NCBI GenBank assembly: GCA_963802675.1
Contig: CAWDJL010000006.1
Coordinates: forward strand, 322,015-386,014
DNA length: 64,000 nucleotides
Reading direction: 5' to 3'
Source of the DNA: an uncultured Acidobacteriota bacterium
Lineage (GTDB): Bacteria > Acidobacteriota > Vicinamibacteria > Vicinamibacterales > UBA2999
The notes below the pieces were generated by a model. That model was not told where the DNA came from and did not search any database. It saw only the letters and a program-made list of their open reading frames with translations. Made by a program: the position numbers and the translations under genes. Shown here piece after piece: positions 5,261-63,729 of this stretch; positions within the stretch are counted from its first letter, which is position 1, and each line of letters opens with the position of its first letter.

Positions 5261-7936
<2,676 letters not shown>

Positions 7937-54503: not shown

Positions 54504-55647
54504 CTACTTCTCAGGCGCGCGATAACCCTGTCGAGCGCGGACTGAATGCGAGTGATTGGGAAGCTCCAGTTCGATCTCGCGCCAGGCGCCGTCGCGCTTC
54601 GTGTTGGTTGACTGATACCCGATCAGATATTGGTTCGCAAGCTCTTCGAGGATCTCGGCAAAGGGTCCATCGAGCCGATCGCTGCGCTCGACGAACAGCG
54701 CTCGCCCACCACTGAGATCGACGAGCTTCTCGATGCCGCTCTTCAGGTGAGCGCGCTGCACGCCGCTGCCAAGCGCCACCATGAACAATGTGGCGTCACT
54801 GGCGCGCACCGCTTGCTCGACCGATTCCAAGCGTGGCATGGCTGGTCCGATCGTCACCGTCGCTGAACACCACCAGCACTCGGCGTCCCGGCTGCTTGGA
54901 CAGCTGCTGCAAGCCCCGCACGATGACATCGTAGAGGGCAGTGCCTCCCCAGGGTTTGAGCCGATCGACGGCGCGGAGCCGTTGTTCCGGGCTGGTCTCG
55001 GGACCGGTCAGCGTGAACAGGTTGTCGTTGAACGCGGTCAACGTCACTTGATCCTGCGGCCTCAGCGCGGCGAGGAACCGTTTGACGGAGTTCTTCAGCT
55101 GCGGCATCGCGTCGGTCATGCTCTCGCTGACGTCAATCGCAATCACGAGCTCGAGCGGCGTTCCCTCGGAGGAGAAGTGAGTGATCGTTTGCGGGACATT
55201 GTCTTCGCGCAGCCGAAAGTCGGCCTTGGTCAGTCCCTTGACGAAGGAATTACGATTGGCGACGACCGCGGTCACTTGAACAACCTCGACGTTCACGACA
55301 TCCACGATGTCGAGGCCCTTCGTGCGAATGCTGGTGACCGCGCGACCGCCTCCCACGAGCTCGGCGACAGCGCGGATCACGTGCTCTTTGATGTTGGCGC
55401 CCGAATCCCACGGACACTCGGCGCGGGCGGGGTCCATCAGCGTGCACACCAACCGGCCGTCGGCGTAGAACATCACGCGTGCCACGTCGCGCACGCGTCG
55501 CGCCGGCTCGATGGCGGCCCGCAGTCGCACCGAACCGACCAGGTAAGTGTCGGGTTCGGGCGACACGATCCGGATCGTCACATCCCGCGGCGGCGACTGG
55601 GCGACGCGAAGGCTGAGGCGATCAGCAACGGCAGCAACGCGAGTCAT
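54504..55647 (-). pseudogene. VWA-domain protein (acidobacterial VWFA-related type), frame broken at 54840-54841
   Basis: ATG 55647 overlaps the upstream stop (ATGA). VEVVQVTAVVANRNSFVKGLTKADFRLREDN..LVIAIDVSESM..GGTALYDV..VLVVFSDGDDRTS is followed, in another frame, by MPRLESVEQAVRASDATLFMVALG..YLIGYQS. Confidence 0.8.
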
Positions 55648-58193
55648 TGTTTTCGCAGTGGGCCATTGCCCGTGAGCGCGGCGACATAATCTTCGACGCG
55701 TGCCGGTGTCAGCGTCTGCGCTTGACGCGACAGCCGTGGCCAGTCGTCGGCAAAGCGGACCGGCACGTCGTGCCAGTAATCGTTGACGGCAAACGCAAGC
55801 AGTGATGGCACCAGCAGCGCCGGCAGACCGAGCCGGGCCGTTTCTTCGACGATCCGCAACGTCAGATCGGGCGTCTGGGTGGTGATTTGTCCCGCATCGG
55901 CCCGCCCGGCGAAGTCTTCCCAAGGGGCGGGCGGCGGCATCGCGGTCACGCGCCGGCCATCGATGCCGTCCGCGGCGAGTCCCCACCGATCGAGTTGGCG
56001 GCGAGAGAGCTTCGGCTGACCGAGCCACATCAGATCCCGCAGTGTGAAGAGATCGTTCAGCGCATCCGGCTGGCGCGCGACCAACCAGGGGATCAGCTGG
56101 CGTGCGATGGCCGAAATGCGTGCCTCACGCGCCAACGCGTCGAGCGCCCGAGCGCTCGCTCCGGCCTCGCGCACCCGCTCGCGGCCGCGCGCGATTGCGC
56201 TCGCGATCTCGTTGCGGTCTGCGTCGGTCAAGTCGAGCGCCGTCATCGACACCACGGTTCGCGTCAAGGTCGAGAAGTCGTTCAGCGTGAGCGTCGGCGC
56301 AGGCGGCATCTCGTCGCCCGTCAAGCGTCGCAAGGCGAGGCGCGAGAGGCCGAGATCGAGGCCAATCAGCGAGCCCGCGACCCGCCACGGGCCGCGACCT
56401 TGTTGCTCTTCGGGCAACGACCAGGGCCGAAGGTCCCGCACGAGGGTCGTGGCCTCGAGCCCCAGATCGTGGCGCATGGCCACGTCCCGGCTGAGCGCGA
56501 CTGCGCCCTCCGGTTCGCCGAGCGCTGGCGCGTACACGAGCGCAGTGAGTGCGAGTGACAAATCACGCGGCCGGTCGTGTGCGATGGCCGCGTCGAGTCC
56601 AGGAGAGGGCAGCTGCGCACGAACCGCGCGCAGCCGCTCATGCTCAGCCTCGACGATGTCCACGCGATACGTCAGACCTTCCCATTCGATCGCCGGTGTG
56701 GGCCGGTCGCGAGGCCCGGCGAGTGCCTGCAGAATCGTGGACTCGTACGCCGTCTTTCCGGTCAAGGCGTCGGGTCGTTCGAGCCGGGGCAGCGAGGCCA
56801 TCAGCGTCGACTGGATCCACTCGGTGATCGATCGCGTCACCCGCGGGTTGCGCTGGACGGCCTCGCTCAGTGTTCGGAGCAGGCGGTCGGTCGTCGCGAC
56901 GTCGATGGTGCGCACATGACGCATCCGCTCTATCAGGCTCACGACTGCCTGGAACGCCGTCACCGCATCGCGCCGATCATCGCTCCGATCGGAAGCGTGA
57001 CGAGCGGCTGTCACCAGCGCCGCCCACGTCGCGGCCTCTTCAATTTGCATCCGTTCGAGCGCAAGGAGCAACGAGCGAAATCGTGCGTACCCACTGAGGG
57101 CAACCGCAAGATCCGGCAGCGCCGCGGGCGATGGAGAGGGGAACACCCGTTGGCCGAGTCGAAACACTTCGATCTTGTCTCGTCGCGGTCGAGCCGTCGT
57201 CGATGCGATCGTGCGCGTCAACCAGGTCAACCCCGCTGGCCGCATCCCGTCGCGCATTGGTGGTGGGGGACCGGCGCTGCCCGAGAACACGTACTCCCAA
57301 AACACTTCGGGAGACGGTCCAAGCAGCCGGCCGGCCTGGACGTCGGCGGTCATCACGATCGTCCATGGATCCGCGATGGTTCGACGATACGGCTGCTCCG
57401 GGATGATCCACTGAACATCGCTCTCGCGAAACGCCGCGTAAAGCGCCGCCGCGTTGTCGCGGCGCGCATCGAGACCGTTGTCCGGCCACGCGGCCGCGAG
57501 TCGCCCATCGTCCATCTGCGCCAGGCAGTCGAAGTACCACGCCAGTCGACCGCGATCGCGAGAGACCAGCGCGCGTAGAAATGCCGACGGCTGGTCGGTG
57601 GAACTGCCGGCGAGTCTCTGCCAGATCGTCTCCGCGCCCTGGCCGCCCGGCACCACCACACGATCACGATCGATGCGTAGCGAGCGCGCCACGATGGCGA
57701 ACGCTGACGCACCTTCGCGGTGCACGAACGACAGCAGATCCCGATCGCGAGCCATCAACGATCGAATCGAGTCGTCAGTTGCCATCAGCCCGACCGCGAC
57801 CATCAGGGCGCGTCGATTGCCGCTCAGACGGCGAAAGAGGTCGTCCTGCGGCGCAACCTCCAGCAGCTCGCGCCAGACCTCGGCGCTGAGCGGTGCCGGC
57901 ACCACGGTGGCTTCAGCATCGGGCGTACCGCCAAGCGTCCCGGCGGTCGTCTGATCAAGAATCCGCTGCAGGGCGTCGGGCGCCCGGCCGAGACGACTCT
58001 GGCGATCCTCGAGCGCGCGCGACAGCACGGGCAGCGTCAACGCGCGTTCGTCAGGCTCGATGCCGAGTGCCGCCAGCGTGGCCTCGCCTCCAGCGATTGG
58101 CAGGTCGAACCACCCTGGAAGGCGCGTGTCGCGGGCCTCGACACCAACGACCACGGCCGTGAGGCCCAGCAGCGCGGCAACCGTCCGACGCAT
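55644..58193 (-). CDS. hypothetical secreted 849-aa protein, mostly helical, no recognisable domain
   Basis: Signal MRRTVAALLGLTAVVVGVEA. The long ORF is uninterrupted and is translationally coupled to the downstream VWA gene. Confidence 0.7.
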   Translation of the reverse strand: MRRTVAALLGLTAVVVGVEARDTRLPGWFDLPIAGGEATLAALGIEPDERALTLPVLSRALEDRQSRLGRAPDALQRILDQTTAGTLGGTPDAEATVVPAPLSAEVWRELLEVAPQDDLFRRLSGNRRALMVAVGLMATDDSIRSLMARDRDLLSFVHREGASAFAIVARSLRIDRDRVVVPGGQGAETIWQRLAGSSTDQPSAFLRALVSRDRGRLAWYFDCLAQMDDGRLAAAWPDNGLDARRDNAAALYAAFRESDVQWIIPEQPYRRTIADPWTIVMTADVQAGRLLGPSPEVFWEYVFSGSAGPPPPMRDGMRPAGLTWLTRTIASTTARPRRDKIEVFRLGQRVFPSPSPAALPDLAVALSGYARFRSLLLALERMQIEEAATWAALVTAARHASDRSDDRRDAVTAFQAVVSLIERMRHVRTIDVATTDRLLRTLSEAVQRNPRVTRSITEWIQSTLMASLPRLERPDALTGKTAYESTILQALAGPRDRPTPAIEWEGLTYRVDIVEAEHERLRAVRAQLPSPGLDAAIAHDRPRDLSLALTALVYAPALGEPEGAVALSRDVAMRHDLGLEATTLVRDLRPWSLPEEQQGRGPWRVAGSLIGLDLGLSRLALRRLTGDEMPPAPTLTLNDFSTLTRTVVSMTALDLTDADRNEIASAIARGRERVREAGASARALDALAREARISAIARQLIPWLVARQPDALNDLFTLRDLMWLGQPKLSRRQLDRWGLAADGIDGRRVTAMPPPAPWEDFAGRADAGQITTQTPDLTLRIVEETARLGLPALLVPSLLAFAVNDYWHDVPVRFADDWPRLSRQAQTLTPARVEDYVAALTGNGPLRKQ

Positions 58194-58232: not shown

Positions 58233-59894
58233 CTATTTCGGTGGAGCTTCGAACAGTTGAACGTTCCGACGCTGGCCGCTGGGAAGCCAGTGACCGGTAT
58301 TCAACACAGGTCCGTGGCGCGCCTCGAAAATCGCCTTCTCTTCCGCGCTATCGATGACGAGGAAAATGGGGAATCCTTGGGCGGCCAAGGCATTCACACT
58401 GTGGTCGAAACTTCCGGCCGGAATCTGATCCCAGTTCACGGTCTGACGGTCGGCATAGTAGCGAAGGCTCCCGCTGTGCTGCAGCGCGAGCACGACCGCG
58501 TTGGTCGGCGTGACCTGCGCGACCAGCTCACCAACGAGGCGGTGACGTGCTTCCTGGGCGGGCATCGTGAACACCTGGTTGACGGCCAGCCACGACATCC
58601 ACGACCACGCGATCGCGACGGCGACACTTGACGCGACCATCGAACCGGCGACCACTCCCGCCAGACGACGAGCGACTTCGATGAGTCCCGCGGCGGCGAC
58701 GATTGTCGCCACTACGATGACCGGCAGGAGAAAGCGCAAGGTCTCCCAATGATCATACGGCCGATAAAACAGGTAGGGTGTGATCACACCGAGTGCGACC
58801 AATGCGAGCGCTGCGCGCGGTACCGTCTTCGATGTGACGATCCCGAGGACGACCGCTGCCAGCCACACCGGACCAAGCGCGAGATACCCCCAATAGAGAT
58901 AGCTTCGCGTGTTGAGCCACGCCGTTTCGATTGAGAAGAGGCCCGCGATGTAGCCATAGCCGCTCGCGAAGGCGTCACCGTAGAGATACCACTGCGTCCA
59001 ACCCTGGATGAGAATGCCCGCGGTGACCGGCGCCAGGTACCACAAGGTGATCGATCCGGCTTTTCGTCCCCTCGCGATCAACGGCAGCGCGGCGAGCAGA
59101 ATCGCCGCAGGTGCGAGGGCCGGCCTGGTGATCAACGCCACGGCGGCTGCGATGCCCGCCAGGAGTGGTAGCGGTCGCGTCGTCGAGAGCGCGGCGACCG
59201 CCACCATCAGTGCCGCGGCCGCCGGCACATCGCTCATGGCTTGAATGGAGTACGTGAACACCAGCGGGTTGACCGCGAGCAGCGCACTCGCGAGCAGCGC
59301 CGTCATCCGGTCGCCGTACCACGCTCGCGTGATCACAGACGACGCGGCCAACAAGATGAGCCCGCAGAGCGGGGCGACGTAGAAGGCTCCCGATCGCCCG
59401 AAGAACGTGGTGGCAATCGCCATGACCGCGGACAGGCCAAGAGGATACGCAGGCACCGACGCGTTCGGAATCCTTCCCGCAGGCACGTAGCCCAACGGAG
59501 TGGCGGCCCGAACTCCGTTTGCAGGCAGAATCTCGGCGAGCGGCTCGTTCTGGACGATGGCGCCGGCAAGAAGACGCTCGGCGGCGCTGACATAGCCGTA
59601 GCTATCGGCGCCGCCACACGTCATTGAGAGATAGCTGATCCAGCCAATCGTTCCGGCGGTGATCAGCGCGCCACACGTCACCTTCGCTAATGCCTCGAGT
59701 GCGGCGGTCGCGAGCGGTCGCCCGCCAAGGCCGATTCGAGCGGCGAACACCATGGCCGCGGCGATCAGCGGTCGTGACAACGTGCGAATGCTTATGGTCG
59801 TGCCGAAAGCCTCGAATCGCAGCGGCCCCGCGTAAGCGGCTGCGAGCGCTGCTCCGAGCAGTATCGCGGTGAGAATCTCCAGCGCAACATTCAA
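58233..59894 (-). CDS. polytopic membrane protein, GT-C-fold glycosyltransferase-like (GT39/GT83-like)
   Basis: 553-aa ORF with more than 10 predicted TM segments, an early-loop acidic motif GGADSYGY, and a soluble C-terminal domain. The family call is tentative. Confidence 0.6.
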   Translation of the reverse strand: MNVALEILTAILLGAALAAAYAGPLRFEAFGTTISIRTLSRPLIAAAMVFAARIGLGGRPLATAALEALAKVTCGALITAGTIGWISYLSMTCGGADSYGYVSAAERLLAGAIVQNEPLAEILPANGVRAATPLGYVPAGRIPNASVPAYPLGLSAVMAIATTFFGRSGAFYVAPLCGLILLAASSVITRAWYGDRMTALLASALLAVNPLVFTYSIQAMSDVPAAAALMVAVAALSTTRPLPLLAGIAAAVALITRPALAPAAILLAALPLIARGRKAGSITLWYLAPVTAGILIQGWTQWYLYGDAFASGYGYIAGLFSIETAWLNTRSYLYWGYLALGPVWLAAVVLGIVTSKTVPRAALALVALGVITPYLFYRPYDHWETLRFLLPVIVVATIVAAAGLIEVARRLAGVVAGSMVASSVAVAIAWSWMSWLAVNQVFTMPAQEARHRLVGELVAQVTPTNAVVLALQHSGSLRYYADRQTVNWDQIPAGSFDHSVNALAAQGFPIFLVIDSAEEKAIFEARHGPVLNTGHWLPSGQRRNVQLFEAPPK

Positions 59895-59920: not shown

Positions 59921-61324
59921 CTATTTCTTCGCCGCCAGATCAACCACGGCGTCGTAATGGAACCGCACGAATCGATGGAGTTCGGTCTCGAGGATGCGCT
60001 CCTGATCGCTGTGCGCGCCAAACCCCTTGGGACCATCCTCGACGTCGGTGGCGGGTCCGATGCCATAGCAGTGGATGCCTTTCGCGCGCAGGTACGCCAT
60101 ATCCGTCGCCCCAGTGCTCATCGTCGGAAGCGTGATCGCCTTGTAGTGCTTCGTGATGTTGGCCTCGAGGGCGGCAAACGCTTCTGTATTCAACCGGGTT
60201 GTTCCGGCGGGGCGCACGTCCCGAGCCGTGAAGGCGACTTCAACCGCAGGGTCATTGACGATTGTCTTGACCTGTTCCAGAAATGCCTGCGGATCCTCAT
60301 CGGGCAGCATTCGCACGTCGAGCGTCGCCGTCGCGTCGGATGGGATGACGTTGACGCGATAGCCTCCCGTGAACATATTTGGCGACACCGAGGTTCGCAG
60401 CATCGACGCGTGACGCGGTTCGTGCTCACGGAAGTACTCGTCGGCCGCGCCGCTCACTTTCGGGTCGGGGCTGAGCGCATTGCGATAGCGCTCCGCTTCT
60501 TCCGGCGACGAGATCGACGCCAGCCGCTTGAAGTACGCGCCCGTGGTCTCGTTTGGTCTGATGGGCGGGACCCACTTGCCGACCTTTGCGACGGCATCGG
60601 ACAAGTGCACGATGGAGTTGGTTTGCAGGGGAACCGAGCCGTGGCCCGCGACACCGCGCGCGGTGAGCTGGATCGCGCGCGGAATTTTCTCCAACGTCTG
60701 CACCGACGCAAACTTCACCTGGCCGGCTTGACGAGAGACGCCGCCACCTTCGGCGTAACAGAACTCGGCCTCGATGGTGGGGAAGTGCTGATTGGCCATG
60801 AACTGAATCCCGACGCGCGTCGTCCCTTCCTCGCCGGCTTCGAAGAGCGCGATCACGTCCCGGTCGAGCGCAACGTTCTGCCGCTTCAAGATCAGGAGCG
60901 CCATCAGCACAGCCGTCACGTTGTCTTTGTCATCGACCGTGCCTCGTGCGTAGACATACCCGCTCTCGCGGGTCGCCGAAAACGGCGGATGCGTCCACTT
61001 CTTCGGGTCCACATTGACGACATCGGTGTGAGCCATCAACAGGAGTGGTCGCTTGCTGCCGTTGCCTTTCAGCCGCGCAACCACGTTCGGGCGATGAGGC
61101 TCGAGAGCAAGCACCTGTGCCGGAATGCCTTCTTGGTCGAGCACCTGCTTGAGGTAGTCGGCCGCCGGTTTCTCGCCTCCCGGCGGGTCGCTGGTGTCGA
61201 AGCGCAACAGCGCCTGAAAGTGGCGCATGGTCTCGTCTTCGAGCTTGGCCCAGTCCGGCGACGCGGGAGCCTGCGCGCCGAGCGTGACGGTGGTGATGAC
61301 GAAGACAATGGTGGCTCGTCGCAT
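59921..61324 (-). CDS. M20/M25/M40 family metallohydrolase with a signal peptide
   Basis: LLLMAHTDVV..YARGTVDDKDNV..FEAGEEG..HS. The signal is MRRATIVFVITTVTLGAQA. Confidence 0.9.
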   Translation of the reverse strand: MRRATIVFVITTVTLGAQAPASPDWAKLEDETMRHFQALLRFDTSDPPGGEKPAADYLKQVLDQEGIPAQVLALEPHRPNVVARLKGNGSKRPLLLMAHTDVVNVDPKKWTHPPFSATRESGYVYARGTVDDKDNVTAVLMALLILKRQNVALDRDVIALFEAGEEGTTRVGIQFMANQHFPTIEAEFCYAEGGGVSRQAGQVKFASVQTLEKIPRAIQLTARGVAGHGSVPLQTNSIVHLSDAVAKVGKWVPPIRPNETTGAYFKRLASISSPEEAERYRNALSPDPKVSGAADEYFREHEPRHASMLRTSVSPNMFTGGYRVNVIPSDATATLDVRMLPDEDPQAFLEQVKTIVNDPAVEVAFTARDVRPAGTTRLNTEAFAALEANITKHYKAITLPTMSTGATDMAYLRAKGIHCYGIGPATDVEDGPKGFGAHSDQERILETELHRFVRFHYDAVVDLAAKK

Positions 61325-61399: not shown

Positions 61400-62548
61400 G
61401 TGCATCGACGAGCGCTCCTGAGAGATGGCGGCATGGCGCTCATGGCGCTGGCCTTGACTGGCTGTGCCACCCGCCGAACGGCGCCTCACGTGGCGACGGC
61501 GCGCCAGCCACTGCGGCTCGCGCCCGTTCGAGTCTCCTGGGACCGGGTCATTCGCGCGACGGTAGGGCTGCGGCCGCATCGTCCTTCCGGATTTGTTCTC
61601 CGCGCAGAAAAGCTCGGCGCCAAGACGCTGATTCACAACTACGGGCACGGTGGGGCCGGAATGTCCTTGTCCTGGGGCACGGGGCAAATGGCGTCCGAGA
61701 TGGCGCTCGAGCAGGGTGATCGTCGGGCGGCCGTGCTCGGATCCGGAGTCGTGGGGCTGACGACGGCTCGTCAGCTGCAGCGCCGCGGGTTCGACGTGAC
61801 GATTTACGCCGCGGCTGTGCCTCCTGACACGACATCGAACATGTCGCTGGCGGGCTTCACGCCGACCTCAGGCCTGGTGTCGTTTGCGCAGCGCACGCCG
61901 GAATGGGATGCGCAGTTCCGTCGCGCCGTCGAGATCGCGTATCGTCAGCTTCAACTGCTGGCCGGTCCGAAGTACGGCATCTCGTGGATCTACAACTACT
62001 CGCCCACCGAGCAGCAGGAATCGGCACGCGGCACCAACGAACTGCTGCCCGACTCGGTACGGACAGGATCAGTCGTCCTGGGTCCGGGCGAACATCCGTT
62101 TCCTTCGACTTATGCCATCGAGCGTCCCGAGATGCGCATCGAGCCCTCGATCTATCTCGACGCGCTCGTGCAGGACGTCGTGGCTCACGGGGGCAGAATC
62201 AAGATCCGAACGTTCGAAACGCCTCGCGACGTCGCGGCTCTCGACGAAGCGGTCGTCGTCAATTGCACCGGCCTCGGGGCAAAGGCGTTGTTCGGCGATC
62301 CGGAACTGATCCCCCTGAAGGGTCAGTTGATCGTCTTGATTCCGCAAGATGAAGTGAACTACAGCACGAACGGTGGGGTCATGAATTCACCCCCCGGGGC
62401 CTTTGTTCACATGATGCCTCGACGGGACGGCATCATCCTGGGCGGCACCTCAGAGCGCGACGTGTGGACAACGGAGATCAACGACGTCGAGCGCAAGCGC
62501 GTCGTCGAAGGCCACAGGCAGCTGTTCGACAGCATGCGACGCTCCTAG
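61400..62548 (+). CDS. D-amino-acid-oxidase-like FAD oxidoreductase, Tat/lipoprotein signal, apparently circularly permuted
   Basis: GTG start. MHRRALLRDGGMALMALALTGC, then VGLRPHRPSGFVLRAE..LIHNYGHGGAGMSLSWG (normally the DAO C-terminus), then AAVLGSGVVGLTTARQL (normally the N-terminal Rossmann motif) ..VVNCTGLGA..IILGGTSE..EGHRQLFDSMRRS*. Confidence 0.85.
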   Translation: MHRRALLRDGGMALMALALTGCATRRTAPHVATARQPLRLAPVRVSWDRVIRATVGLRPHRPSGFVLRAEKLGAKTLIHNYGHGGAGMSLSWGTGQMASEMALEQGDRRAAVLGSGVVGLTTARQLQRRGFDVTIYAAAVPPDTTSNMSLAGFTPTSGLVSFAQRTPEWDAQFRRAVEIAYRQLQLLAGPKYGISWIYNYSPTEQQESARGTNELLPDSVRTGSVVLGPGEHPFPSTYAIERPEMRIEPSIYLDALVQDVVAHGGRIKIRTFETPRDVAALDEAVVVNCTGLGAKALFGDPELIPLKGQLIVLIPQDEVNYSTNGGVMNSPPGAFVHMMPRRDGIILGGTSERDVWTTEINDVERKRVVEGHRQLFDSMRRS

Positions 62549-62565
62549 GACTGCTCACGCAGCAG

Positions 62566-62760
62566 TAGGACTCGCCCCTTTGGCGCTCGTAGGGCTCGGC
62601 GGCTTCGCCGCCTCGTGCGGGCCGCGGCCGTTCGGCCGCGGCTTTCGATTGCGTCGACGGTACTTCCCAGCGCGGGCCGCACGGCCCGCGCCCCCCCGAG
62701 GCGCGCAGCGCCGAGTCCGACGAGCGCCGAAGGCGCGAGTCTCACGAGCGAAGCGAGTCC
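62566..62760. repeat. ~195-bp imperfect long palindrome with two perfect internal 10-bp hairpins between convergent genes
   Basis: Outer pairs: GGACTCGC (62568-62575) with GCGAGTCC (62753-62760), and GGCGCTCGT (62582-62590) with ACGAGCGCC (62720-62728). Inner hairpins: GCCGCGGCCG-TT-CGGCCGCGGC (62621-62642) and GCGCGGGCCG-CA-CGGCCCGCGC (62670-62691). Confidence 0.85.
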
Positions 62761-62763
62761 TTC

Positions 62764-63729
62764 TTAGAACCAGTTGGCCTTCCTGAATCTATAGATCAAA
62801 TACAAATCCGCCAGCACCATCGACCCCAGCGCGAGCGGGTAGCCCCACGGCATGCGCAGCTCGGGCATATGGTCGAAGTTCATTCCGTAGATTCCAGCGA
62901 TCAACGTCGGCACGGCGATGAGCGACGCGTATGCCGCCAGTCGCTTGACAACCTCGTTCTCCTGCAACGTGATCAGCGACAAGTTGACCGACATCGCTGT
63001 TGACACCATGTCGCGAAGGTTCTCGATCGACTGCTGCAGCCTCGCCAGATGGTCATGAACATCGCGGAAATAGTCCTGCAAGTTGAAGCACGTCGGCGGC
63101 ACACGACCACCATGTAGCTTGCCCGTCACCTCGAGCAGCGGGACGCTGGCGTGCTCGAGGGTCATCACTTTCCGCTTGAGTCCGTACAAGGCCTCGACGT
63201 TTGCTCGGGTGGTCTGGCCGGCAAAGATGCGCTCTTCGACTTGTTCGATTTCTTCGGTGAGCGCGTCGAGCACGGGAAAGTAACGATCGACGACCGCGTC
63301 CATGAGGGCATACAGAACATAGGCAGGCCCGTGCTTCAGCAGCTCAGGCTCCTCCTCGCAGCGACGACGCACGTCGACAAAGCCGCGTTCGACACCGCGA
63401 CGGGTGGTAATCACGTAGTTTCGACCCACAAAGACCGAAACCTCGCCGGTCCTGAGGTCATCATCTGCCGCCTCGACGGGGTGCATCACCACGAAGAGCG
63501 ACTGCGCGTACTCCTCGATCTTCGGTCGCTGATGGCCGTGCTGCGCGTCTTCGACCGCCAACTCGTGAAGGGTGAACTCCAGTTGCAGCGCCTCGAATTC
63601 GGCCGTCTCTGGATCTTTCAGGGCCACCCAGACAAAACACCCAGGTCGACTCGTGTACGAACGAATCTCGCTGACTTGGATGTCAGCCAGCTTCTGACCG
63701 TCCTGGTAGGCGACGCAATTGACAAGCAT
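62764..63729 (-). CDS. corA: CorA magnesium/cobalt transporter
   Basis: 321-aa ORF with the GMN motif in GIYGMNFDHMPEL and two C-terminal TM helices. Confidence 0.95.
   Translation of the reverse strand: MLVNCVAYQDGQKLADIQVSEIRSYTSRPGCFVWVALKDPETAEFEALQLEFTLHELAVEDAQHGHQRPKIEEYAQSLFVVMHPVEAADDDLRTGEVSVFVGRNYVITTRRGVERGFVDVRRRCEEEPELLKHGPAYVLYALMDAVVDRYFPVLDALTEEIEQVEERIFAGQTTRANVEALYGLKRKVMTLEHASVPLLEVTGKLHGGRVPPTCFNLQDYFRDVHDHLARLQQSIENLRDMVSTAMSVNLSLITLQENEVVKRLAAYASLIAVPTLIAGIYGMNFDHMPELRMPWGYPLALGSMVLADLYLIYRFRKANWF

What the first reader, a model, noticed from the sequence alone, without database searches (positions are those of the whole stretch)
61400..62548. D-amino-acid-oxidase-like flavoprotein with its canonical C-terminal segment moved to the N-terminus
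Established knowledge: DAO-family enzymes begin with the Rossmann GxGxxG strand-helix and end with ..G(F/L)RPxRP...HNYGHGGxG..WG.

Seen in sequence: after a Tat/lipobox signal (HRRALL..LTGC), this protein reads first VGLRPHRPSGFVLRAE..LIHNYGHGGAGMSLSWG and only then AAVLGSGVVGLTTARQL. It continues through NCTGLGA and ILGGTSE and stops at EGHRQLFDSM. In canonical DAO that is the point just before the RP..HNYGHGG segment. The N-terminal piece begins RQPLRLAPV, which echoes the C-terminal HRQLFDSM, as a duplicate-then-trim permutation would leave.

Inference: this is a circularly permuted, exported DAO-fold oxidase.
Basis: partly seen in the sequence, partly recalled or inferred. Interest (0 to 1): 0.6.

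Follow-up and report, generated by a model that had tools for sequence, protein, structure and literature searches.

The report
Circularly permuted, exported DAAO-like flavoenzyme
This gene encodes a relative of D-amino-acid oxidase whose normally last ~60 residues come first, behind an export and lipid-anchor signal; it belongs to a large, undescribed family of soil bacteria that databases label only generically.

Summary
ORF 61400-62548 (+, 382 aa) matches D-amino-acid and D-aspartate oxidases in two non-colinear pieces: residues 51-102 match the enzymes' C-terminal GxRP...HNYGHGG segment, and residues 108-371 match their residues ~2-262. Moving residues 24-105 back to the C-terminus in silico turns the Pfam DAO match into one full-length stretch (2-353 of 353). 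The order is not an artefact. At least 50 species-level genomes of Acidobacteriota and Gemmatimonadota share it, as do thousands of metagenomic proteins, down to ~35% identity. About 11-12% of sampled genomes in each phylum carry it. The twin-arginine motif and lipobox cysteine are conserved, and the genome encodes TatC and signal peptidase II. AlphaFold gives a confident DAAO fold. Rhizosphere metatranscriptome contigs cover the gene across the junction. Canonical-order, signal-less DAAO-like proteins occur in the same phylum, about 30% identical and on a long separate branch. The carboxylate-binding Arg and flavin-loop Gly are invariant, but both DAAO active-site tyrosines are replaced, so the substrate and electron acceptor are unknown. 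No solved structure, named family or paper describing the permutation was found. It is a new variant of a known enzyme kind, of moderate interest.

The parts
61400..62548 (+). Whole ORF, 382 aa plus stop codon: circularly permuted DAAO-fold flavoprotein precursor
61400..61465 (+). Residues 1-22: twin-arginine signal (M-H-R-R-A-L-L-R-D-G-G), hydrophobic stretch and lipobox L-T-G-C22
   Evidence: The motif is conserved across the family: 164 of 183 full N-termini have RRxx[LIVMF], and 152 also have a Cys 10-40 residues later. TatC and LspA are in the genome.
61466..61516 (+). Residues 23-39: poorly conserved tether of variable length between the lipidated Cys and the folded domain
   Evidence: pLDDT is below 50 for residues 19-31. 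This part of alignment A1 is variable and gapped.
61517..61714 (+). Residues 40-105: relocated segment equivalent to the canonical C-terminus (three strands and a helix), carrying G56-L-R58-P-x-R61 and H79-N-Y-G-H-G-G85
   Evidence: Pfam DAO profile 296-353. PDB DDO 280-334 and pig DAAO 274-324. It holds the densest run of invariant columns and has pLDDT 84-97.
61565..61582 (+). G-L-R-P-H-R (residues 56-61); R58 aligns with the carboxylate-binding Arg283 of pig and human DAAO
   Evidence: Alignment; invariant in 41 sequences
61634..61654 (+). H-N-Y-G-H-G-G (residues 79-85); G85 aligns with Gly313 of DAAO
61715..62545 (+). Residues 106-382: equivalent of canonical residues ~1-270, namely the Rossmann beta-alpha-beta start, the substrate-binding domain and the interface helix, ending ...EGHRQLFDSMRRS
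   Evidence: Pfam DAO profile 2-297; PDB DAAO 2-262
61739..61756 (+). G114-S-G-V-V-G119: the dinucleotide-binding GxGxxG motif, here 114 residues from the N-terminus instead of ~7
   Evidence: G114, G116 and G119 are invariant

Best explanation
The gene encodes a functional FAD enzyme with the D-amino-acid-oxidase fold whose chain is naturally circularly permuted. The last three strands and helix of the canonical enzyme, which carry the carboxylate-binding Arg and the HNYGHGG flavin loop, are encoded first. A linker of about 5 residues joins them to the Rossmann beta1 strand. The chain ends in the loop where the canonical enzyme would enter that segment. The precursor carries a twin-arginine signal ending in a lipobox. 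The inferred route is as follows: the protein folds and binds FAD in the cytoplasm, the Tat system exports it, signal peptidase II cleaves it, and it is lipid-anchored at Cys22 on a ~20-residue flexible tether facing the periplasm or cell surface. There it most likely oxidatively deaminates an alpha-amino-acid-type substrate, with D-amino acids as the leading candidate, and passes electrons to O2 or to a periplasmic acceptor. Shown here: the permutation, its conservation, the signal motifs, the fold and the conserved Arg/Gly/FAD motifs. Inferred: FAD loading, Tat export, lipidation, substrate and electron acceptor.
For: Non-colinear matches to Pfam DAO and to DAAO and DDO structures. The un-permuted sequence matches Pfam DAO in one stretch, 5-355 to profile 2-353/353, E 1.3e-33, and matches 9vpf, 1c0i and 7ct4 in single colinear stretches. 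More than 7,800 related proteins were found at E <= 0.001, and the 120 listed are near full length. There are 387 clusters at the 50% level with E <= 1e-30, and the best 150 match the query without rearrangement, down to 35% identity. Of 319 sequences checked, 250 carry all three motifs and all 250 have the permuted order. Fifty species-level loci were recovered. Prevalence is 37 of 301 Acidobacteriota genomes and 23 of 201 Gemmatimonadota genomes. Invariant residues are R58, G56, P59, H79, G82, G85, G114, G116 and G119. Tat motif and lipobox Cys statistics are, and TatC and LspA are present. The AF2 model has pLDDT 86.7 and pTM 0.84 with the expected order of strands and helices. The Foldseek top hits are all DAAO or DDO, E ~1e-15, with only ~285 aligned columns, as expected when a sequential aligner meets a permutation. 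Metatranscriptome contigs 97-99% identical cover most of the ORF and cross the junction at 61714/61715.
Against: No biochemical or structural data exist for any member. The two active-site tyrosines of DAAO align to M328 and H337 (Y224 and Y228 in pig DAAO), so D-amino-acid specificity is not assured. No NCBIfam equivalog reaches its cut-off; the best is ThiO at 52.8 bits against 250.8. The gene neighbourhood is not conserved beyond order level, so context gives only a weak hint (peptidases). RNA libraries can contain DNA.
Confidence: 0.7

Rival explanations
1. The enzyme has the same permuted, exported architecture, but it is not a D-amino-acid oxidase. It acts on another amine or amino-acid-like substrate (glycine, sarcosine, an opine, a peptidoglycan fragment). 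Alternatively it works as a dehydrogenase that hands electrons to a periplasmic cytochrome or quinone rather than to O2.
For: The Y224 and Y228 equivalents are Met and His. The SNMSLAGFTP motif differs from the canonical TTS(D/A)VAAA(L/I)W(Q/Y)P. Weaker fold matches include glycine oxidase, opine dehydrogenase and sarcosine oxidase, and ThiO is the best NCBIfam hit. From established knowledge, periplasmic flavoenzymes such as NicA2 use cytochrome c, and Proteus L-amino-acid deaminase (DAO fold) is a membrane-linked dehydrogenase.
Against: By both sequence and fold, DAAO and DDO are clearly the closest: E 1e-15 to 1e-18 against 1e-8 to 1e-9 for the others. The carboxylate-binding Arg is invariant. 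No cytochrome gene is a conserved neighbour.
Confidence: 0.4
2. The apparent permutation is an artefact. Possible causes would be a mis-assembly, a fusion of the tail of one DAO gene to the head of the next, or a chance resemblance of the N-terminal stretch.
For: None was found. The idea arises only because the window comes from a metagenome-type assembly.
Against: The same order occurs in 50 independent species genomes and in thousands of metagenomic proteins. The upstream gene is a divergent M20 peptidase, not a DAO gene. The N-terminal piece alone passes Pfam's DAO threshold. Independent RNA contigs cross the junction.
Confidence: 0.01
3. The protein is a decaying or catalytically dead DAAO relic that has been kept as a binding or structural lipoprotein.
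For: Two canonical active-site tyrosines are missing. A few family members are frameshifted or truncated (L027, L048, L055).
Against: The FAD-binding and catalytic-loop residues are invariant across sequences that have diverged to less than 50% identity. The ORF is intact in nearly all loci. The model is confident, and the gene is transcribed in situ.
Confidence: 0.05

Closest known systems
Eukaryotic D-amino-acid oxidase (EC 1.4.3.3; pig 1KIF/1DAO, human 2DU8, Rhodotorula 1C0I) and D-aspartate oxidase (human 6RKF, Cryptococcus 9VPF)
   Same: Best matches by sequence (E 1e-15 to 1e-18) and by fold (Foldseek E ~1e-15). The GxGxxG motif, the G-x-R-P arginine (Arg283 equivalent) and the HNYGHGG loop (Gly313 equivalent) are all present.
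   Different: The chain order is permuted: the canonical residues ~270-335 come first. The protein has a Tat signal and lipobox instead of being cytosolic or peroxisomal. Tyr224 and Tyr228 are replaced by Met and His. Identity is only 22-26%.
Canonical-order bacterial DAAO-like proteins of the same phylum (L075-L078, 332-359 aa)
   Same: Same family. They are about 30% identical to the un-permuted query over residues ~3-356 and carry the same C-terminal VGLRP...HNYGHGGAG motif.
   Different: They have the normal order and no signal peptide. They keep the Tyr at the Y228 position. They are separated from the permuted clade by a branch of about 2 substitutions per site, SH-aLRT 100.
Glycine oxidase ThiO, sarcosine oxidase and opine dehydrogenase (other PF01266 members)
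   Same: Same two-domain GR2-type fold (Foldseek E 1e-8 to 1e-9). ThiO is the best NCBIfam hit.
   Different: They are much more distant. The ThiO score is far below its cut-off (52.8 against 250.8 bits). They have the canonical order and are cytoplasmic.
Exported or membrane-associated DAO-fold enzymes, such as Bordetella 'conserved exported protein' 3DME and Proteus L-amino-acid deaminase (the latter recalled from the literature, not tested here)
   Same: They are DAO-fold flavoproteins working outside the cytoplasm. 3DME appears among the fold matches (rank 47).
   Different: They aligned over 316 columns sequentially and so appear to have the canonical order. This suggests export does not require the permutation.

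Membership tests
Pfam DAO (PF01266) FAD-dependent oxidoreductase | Score above the gathering threshold | tested here: met
   112.3 bits against 27.9
Pfam DAO (PF01266) FAD-dependent oxidoreductase | Single colinear match from the N-terminal GxGxxG to the C-terminal G-x-R-P / H-x-x-G-H-G-G | tested here: not met
   There are two stretches in swapped order: residues 40-101 match profile 296-353, and residues 110-376 match profile 2-297. The match is colinear only after in-silico un-permutation.
D-amino-acid oxidase proper (EC 1.4.3.3) | Carboxylate-binding Arg (Arg283) and flavin-loop Gly (Gly313) | tested here: met
   R58 and G85 align to them and are invariant in 41 sequences.
D-amino-acid oxidase proper (EC 1.4.3.3) | Active-site Tyr224 and Tyr228 | tested here: not met
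   They align to M328 and H337. The canonical bacterial relatives keep the Tyr at the second position.
D-amino-acid oxidase proper (EC 1.4.3.3) | Oxidation of D-amino acids with O2 to give the keto acid, NH3 and H2O2 | not testable with these tools
   Requires an enzyme assay.
Glycine oxidase ThiO (TIGR02352) | Score above the equivalog cut-off | tested here: not met
   52.8 bits against 250.8
Tat-exported bacterial lipoprotein | Twin-arginine motif, hydrophobic region and lipobox Cys at the N-terminus | tested here: met
   The window protein reads MHRRALLRDGG...LTGC22. Across the family, 164 of 183 have the RR motif and 152 also have the Cys; the commonest lipoboxes are LTGC, LGGC and LSGC.
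Tat-exported bacterial lipoprotein | Machinery present in the genome (TatC, signal peptidase II) | tested here: met
   TatC 207.9 bits; Peptidase_A8 91.5 bits
Tat-exported bacterial lipoprotein | Demonstrated Tat-dependent export and acylation | not testable with these tools
   Requires reporter fusions, tat mutants, or globomycin or palmitate labelling.
Natural circular permutant of a known fold | Two non-colinear homologous segments that become one colinear match when the termini are re-joined | tested here: met
Natural circular permutant of a known fold | 3D superposition with a permutation-aware aligner shows the same fold with relocated termini | tested here: inconclusive
   The AF2 model is confident and has the expected order of strands and helices. 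Sequential Foldseek aligns only ~285 columns, TMq 0.58.

The most novel reading that the evidence does not exclude
The permuted proteins are an ancient clade with a single origin: extracytoplasmic, lipid-anchored D-amino-acid (or related) oxidases or dehydrogenases. They would be the first natural circular permutation recognised in the DAAO/GR2 flavoenzyme family. They would also be a major, overlooked route by which abundant soil phyla (Acidobacteriota, Gemmatimonadota) scavenge or detoxify D-amino acids outside the cytoplasm, possibly together with exported peptidases.
Probability: 0.3. Interest if true: 0.7.

Novelty: new variant of a known kind. Interest (0 to 1): 0.55.

Why it matters
DAAO is a textbook flavoenzyme that is used heavily in biotechnology and neurobiology. 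A natural, very widespread permuted form shows that its FAD-binding domain tolerates relocation of the strand-helix unit that carries key catalytic residues. That gives protein engineers a ready-made permutation site, and it gives evolutionary biologists a clean case: both topologies occur in one phylum. An exported, lipid-anchored version would also place D-amino-acid-type oxidation, and possibly H2O2 production, outside the cytoplasm in dominant soil bacteria. That bears on D-amino-acid turnover in soil and rhizosphere. Thousands of database entries are currently labelled only 'FAD-dependent oxidoreductase' or 'D-amino-acid oxidase', with no note of the rearrangement.

Tried and rejected
- **Artefact or chance:** rejected.
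- **Evolutionary intermediates:** I looked for proteins with the segment at both ends (A-B-A). None was found among 319 family sequences. The six 'canonical' calls made by my regex were GxGxxG-like matches inside signal peptides. The power is limited, because only the top hits of more than 7,800 could be read.
- **Hits starting at query 84-107:** I suspected canonical relatives, but on inspection they are full-length permuted genes or a frameshifted copy.
- **'Phylum of G301' search:** L015 is titled Acidimicrobiia and the search was meant to sample Actinomycetota. It re-sampled the window's own phylum instead (the contigs are identical), so it gave no second-phylum data. It did reveal canonical-order relatives.
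- **Conserved operon partners:** nothing is conserved beyond order-level synteny. M20 peptidase occurs in 16 of 50 loci and S9 prolyl oligopeptidase in 13 of 50.
- **Organism names for distant members:** the sources give none.
- **Literature:** six searches found no description of a permuted DAAO. Takahashi's 2015 review on bacterial DAAOs is not held.
- **Permutation-aware structure alignment:** model coordinates are not exposed to the Python box.
- **Promoter and terminator scan:** no sites found.

Full report
**Observation.** The window holds an ORF at 61400..62548 on the + strand (382 aa, GTG start). The order is M-H-R-R-A-L-L...L-T-G-C22, then V-G-L-R-P-H-R-P (55-62) and H-N-Y-G-H-G-G (79-85), and only then A-A-V-L-G-S-G-V-V-G (110-119). 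The protein ends ...E-G-H-R-Q-L-F-D-S-M-R-R-S.

**Is it a circular permutation?** The evidence says yes.
- phmmer against all PDB chains gives D-aspartate and D-amino-acid oxidases as the only strong hits (E 5e-18 to 3e-15).
- Each of these hits comes in two stretches in swapped order. For example, query 108-367 aligns to human DDO 13-261, and query 51-102 aligns to DDO 280-334. Query 109-371 aligns to pig DAAO 2-262, and query 49-96 aligns to pig DAAO 274-324.
- Pfam DAO matches residues 110-376 to profile positions 2-297 of 353.
- The first 105 residues alone match profile positions 296-353, above the gathering threshold.
- I then moved residues 24-105 behind residue 382 in silico. This sequence matches Pfam DAO in one stretch (5-355 to 2-353/353, E 1.3e-33).
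- It also matches Cryptococcus DDO, Rhodotorula DAAO and Rasamsonia DAAO in single colinear stretches.
- No PDB entry is colinear with the native order.

**Is it an artefact?** No.
- The upstream gene is a divergently oriented M20 peptidase and the downstream gene is a convergent CorA, so the N-terminal piece is not the tail of a neighbouring DAO gene.
- The word-indexed protein search found 7,862 relatives among 8,000 scored candidates. The 120 listed are 74-98% identical and near full length.
- The exhaustive search of 50%-identity representatives found 387 clusters at E <= 1e-30. The best 150 match the query without rearrangement, most in a single stretch, down to 35% identity.
- A motif-order check on 319 family sequences found the permuted order in all 250 that carry the three motifs. 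The six apparent exceptions were GxGxxG-like matches inside signal peptides.
- Fifty species-representative genomes carry it. They include Vicinamibacterales, Thermoanaerobaculia, Bryobacteraceae, Terriglobia, Gemmatimonadaceae and Longimicrobiales.
- In even samples it occurs in 37 of 301 Acidobacteriota genomes (22 of 186 genera, up to four copies per genome) and in 23 of 201 Gemmatimonadota genomes.
- The window's own genome has one copy and no canonical DAAO paralogue.

**Anatomy.**
- A 41-sequence alignment shows that the relocated segment holds the densest set of invariant residues: R49, G56, L57, R58, P59, R61, G64, F65, H79, G82, G85, G87, W92 and G93.
- A helix of about 16 residues follows, then a linker of about 5 residues leading straight into the Rossmann beta1 strand and GxGxxG (G114, G116 and G119 are invariant).
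- An alignment with four canonical-order relatives places the cut exactly in the loop between the helix ending ...C-R-E-L-E-P and the strand leading to V-G-L-R-P.
- The extra residues at the un-permuted junction are the short C-terminal tail plus the N-terminal tether.
- AlphaFold2 on the alignment gives pLDDT 86.7 and pTM 0.84. The order of elements is E50-60, E67-72, E75-80, H87-102, then E109-113, H117-128 and so on, ending in H362-381. Only residues 19-31 fall below pLDDT 50.
- The top 33 Foldseek matches against the PDB are all DAAO or DDO (E about 1e-15 to 6e-12). They have only about 285 aligned columns and TMq 0.58, which is what a sequential aligner should give on a permuted chain.
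- A permutation-aware superposition could not be run, because coordinates are not exposed.

**Export signal.**
- Orthologue N-termini read (M/V)-[D/N/H]-R-R-x-[F/L]-L-[K/R]-x-G-G, then a hydrophobic stretch ending in a Cys.
- Of 183 sequences with a complete N-terminus, 164 have RRxx[LIVMF] and 152 also have a Cys 10-40 residues later.
- The commonest lipoboxes are LTGC, LGGC and LSGC. The residue after the Cys is Ala in 118 of the 152 sequences that have both the RR motif and the Cys.
- Most sequences lacking RR are gene calls that start at an internal Met and still show the lipobox.
- The genome encodes TatC and signal peptidase II.
- A Tat route fits a protein that must bind FAD before export. 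This last point is an inference from established knowledge of Tat substrates.

**Likely chemistry.**
- R58 aligns with Arg283 and G85 with Gly313 of pig and human DAAO, and both are invariant. An alpha-carboxylate-bearing amine substrate and a DAAO-like flavin environment are therefore likely.
- The two active-site tyrosines align to M328 (in a variable inserted loop) and to H337. Canonical bacterial relatives keep the second Tyr.
- The family also has its own strongly conserved motifs: P-P-D-T-T-S-N-M-S-L-A-G-F-T-P, T-P-E-W-D-A-Q-F and P-R-x-D-G.
- No NCBIfam equivalog is reached. The substrate, and whether the enzyme is an oxidase or a dehydrogenase, therefore remain open.
- Genomic context gives only a weak hint. 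An exported-looking M20 peptidase lies within 6 kb in 16 of 50 loci, and an S9 prolyl oligopeptidase in 13 of 50. All of these loci belong to the window's wider clade.

**Expression.** Contigs from three rRNA-depleted rhizosphere metatranscriptome runs of one study match the gene at about 97-99% identity over most of its length. Several cross the junction at 61714/61715: X15 record 4 covers 61626-61776, X16 record 15 covers 61655-61997, and X5 record 18 covers 61688-61872. DNA carry-over cannot be excluded. The DNA holders are soil and rhizosphere metagenomes.

**Origin.**
- Searching genomes with the un-permuted sequence splits every family member into two matches, with the 'C-terminal' piece lying upstream.
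- The same search uncovered canonical-order, signal-less DAAO-like proteins in the same phylum (L075-L078, 332-359 aa, about 30% identity over residues ~3-356).
- In a tree of un-permuted family members, with these four as outgroup, the permuted proteins form one clade (SH-aLRT 100, branch about 2 substitutions per site). Gemmatimonadota sequences are interspersed among the Acidobacteriota ones.
- This fits a single old origin followed by some transfer or paralogy, but with only four outgroup sequences it is not a strong test.
L375-F376 and L40-A41 map to the same Pfam positions (296-297), and both 'Q-L-F-D' and 'R-L-A-P' align to the canonical 'L-E-P' turn. This is what a duplication-and-trim origin could leave. 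The overlap is too short to be significant, however, and no A-B-A intermediate was seen.

**Comparison with what is known.**
- By sequence and fold, the protein belongs to the DAAO/DDO branch of PF01266.
- It fails the colinearity that defines every described member, and it lacks the two DAAO tyrosines.
- Six full-text searches found no description of a permuted DAAO or DAO-family enzyme.
That is agreement, not independent proof.
- Source databases label members 'D-amino-acid oxidase', 'glycine/D-amino acid oxidase-like deaminating enzyme' or 'FAD-dependent oxidoreductase'.

**Verdict.** This is a new variant of a known kind. Interest is moderate (0.55): it is a clean, very widespread natural circular permutation of a textbook flavoenzyme coupled to Tat-lipoprotein export, and its substrate and physiological role are unknown.

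Noticed in passing
window 62564-62764: A long imperfect palindrome fills the convergent spacer between the oxidase gene and corA. It has 33-nt arms that are 88% complementary, nested 29-nt arms, and two perfect 10-bp GC hairpins. No canonical T-tailed terminator was found. An earlier first-reader note (e1-2841056) flagged the same element.
   Followed up: partly
window 59921-61324 (-): An M20/M25/M40 peptidase with a signal-like N-terminus (MRRATIVFVITTVTLGAQA) is transcribed divergently, 75 bp from the oxidase start. A homologue lies within 6 kb of the permuted oxidase in 16 of 50 related loci. The best NCBIfam models are only generic 'hypothetical protein' subfamilies.
   Followed up: partly
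L013 4632-5816 (-): A second permuted DAO paralogue (Pfam DAO residues 114-391 to profile 1-297) lies divergently next to the first copy (6001-7188). Several genomes hold 2-4 copies.
   Followed up: partly
L013 8201-10387 (-) and 12 other loci: An S9 prolyl oligopeptidase (Peptidase_S9_N plus Peptidase_S9) recurs within 4 kb of the permuted oxidase in 13 of 50 loci.
   Followed up: partly
L015, L027 (record titles 'uncultured Acidimicrobiia'): The genome tool places L015's genome in the window's own phylum: the phylum sample returned the same contigs as for the window. In the tree, L015's oxidase nests inside an Acidobacteriota clade. The Acidimicrobiia labels are probably binning or labelling errors rather than evidence for the family in Actinomycetota.
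   Followed up: partly
L027, L048, L055: These three family members are frameshifted or truncated. They are either occasional pseudogenes or assembly errors.
   Followed up: no
window 55644-58193 (-) and 58233-59894 (-): Two large ORFs (849 and 553 aa) have no Pfam match but clear homologues in related genomes: 11 loci for the first and 4 for the second. They lie next to a VWA-domain ORF (54796-56028).
   Followed up: no
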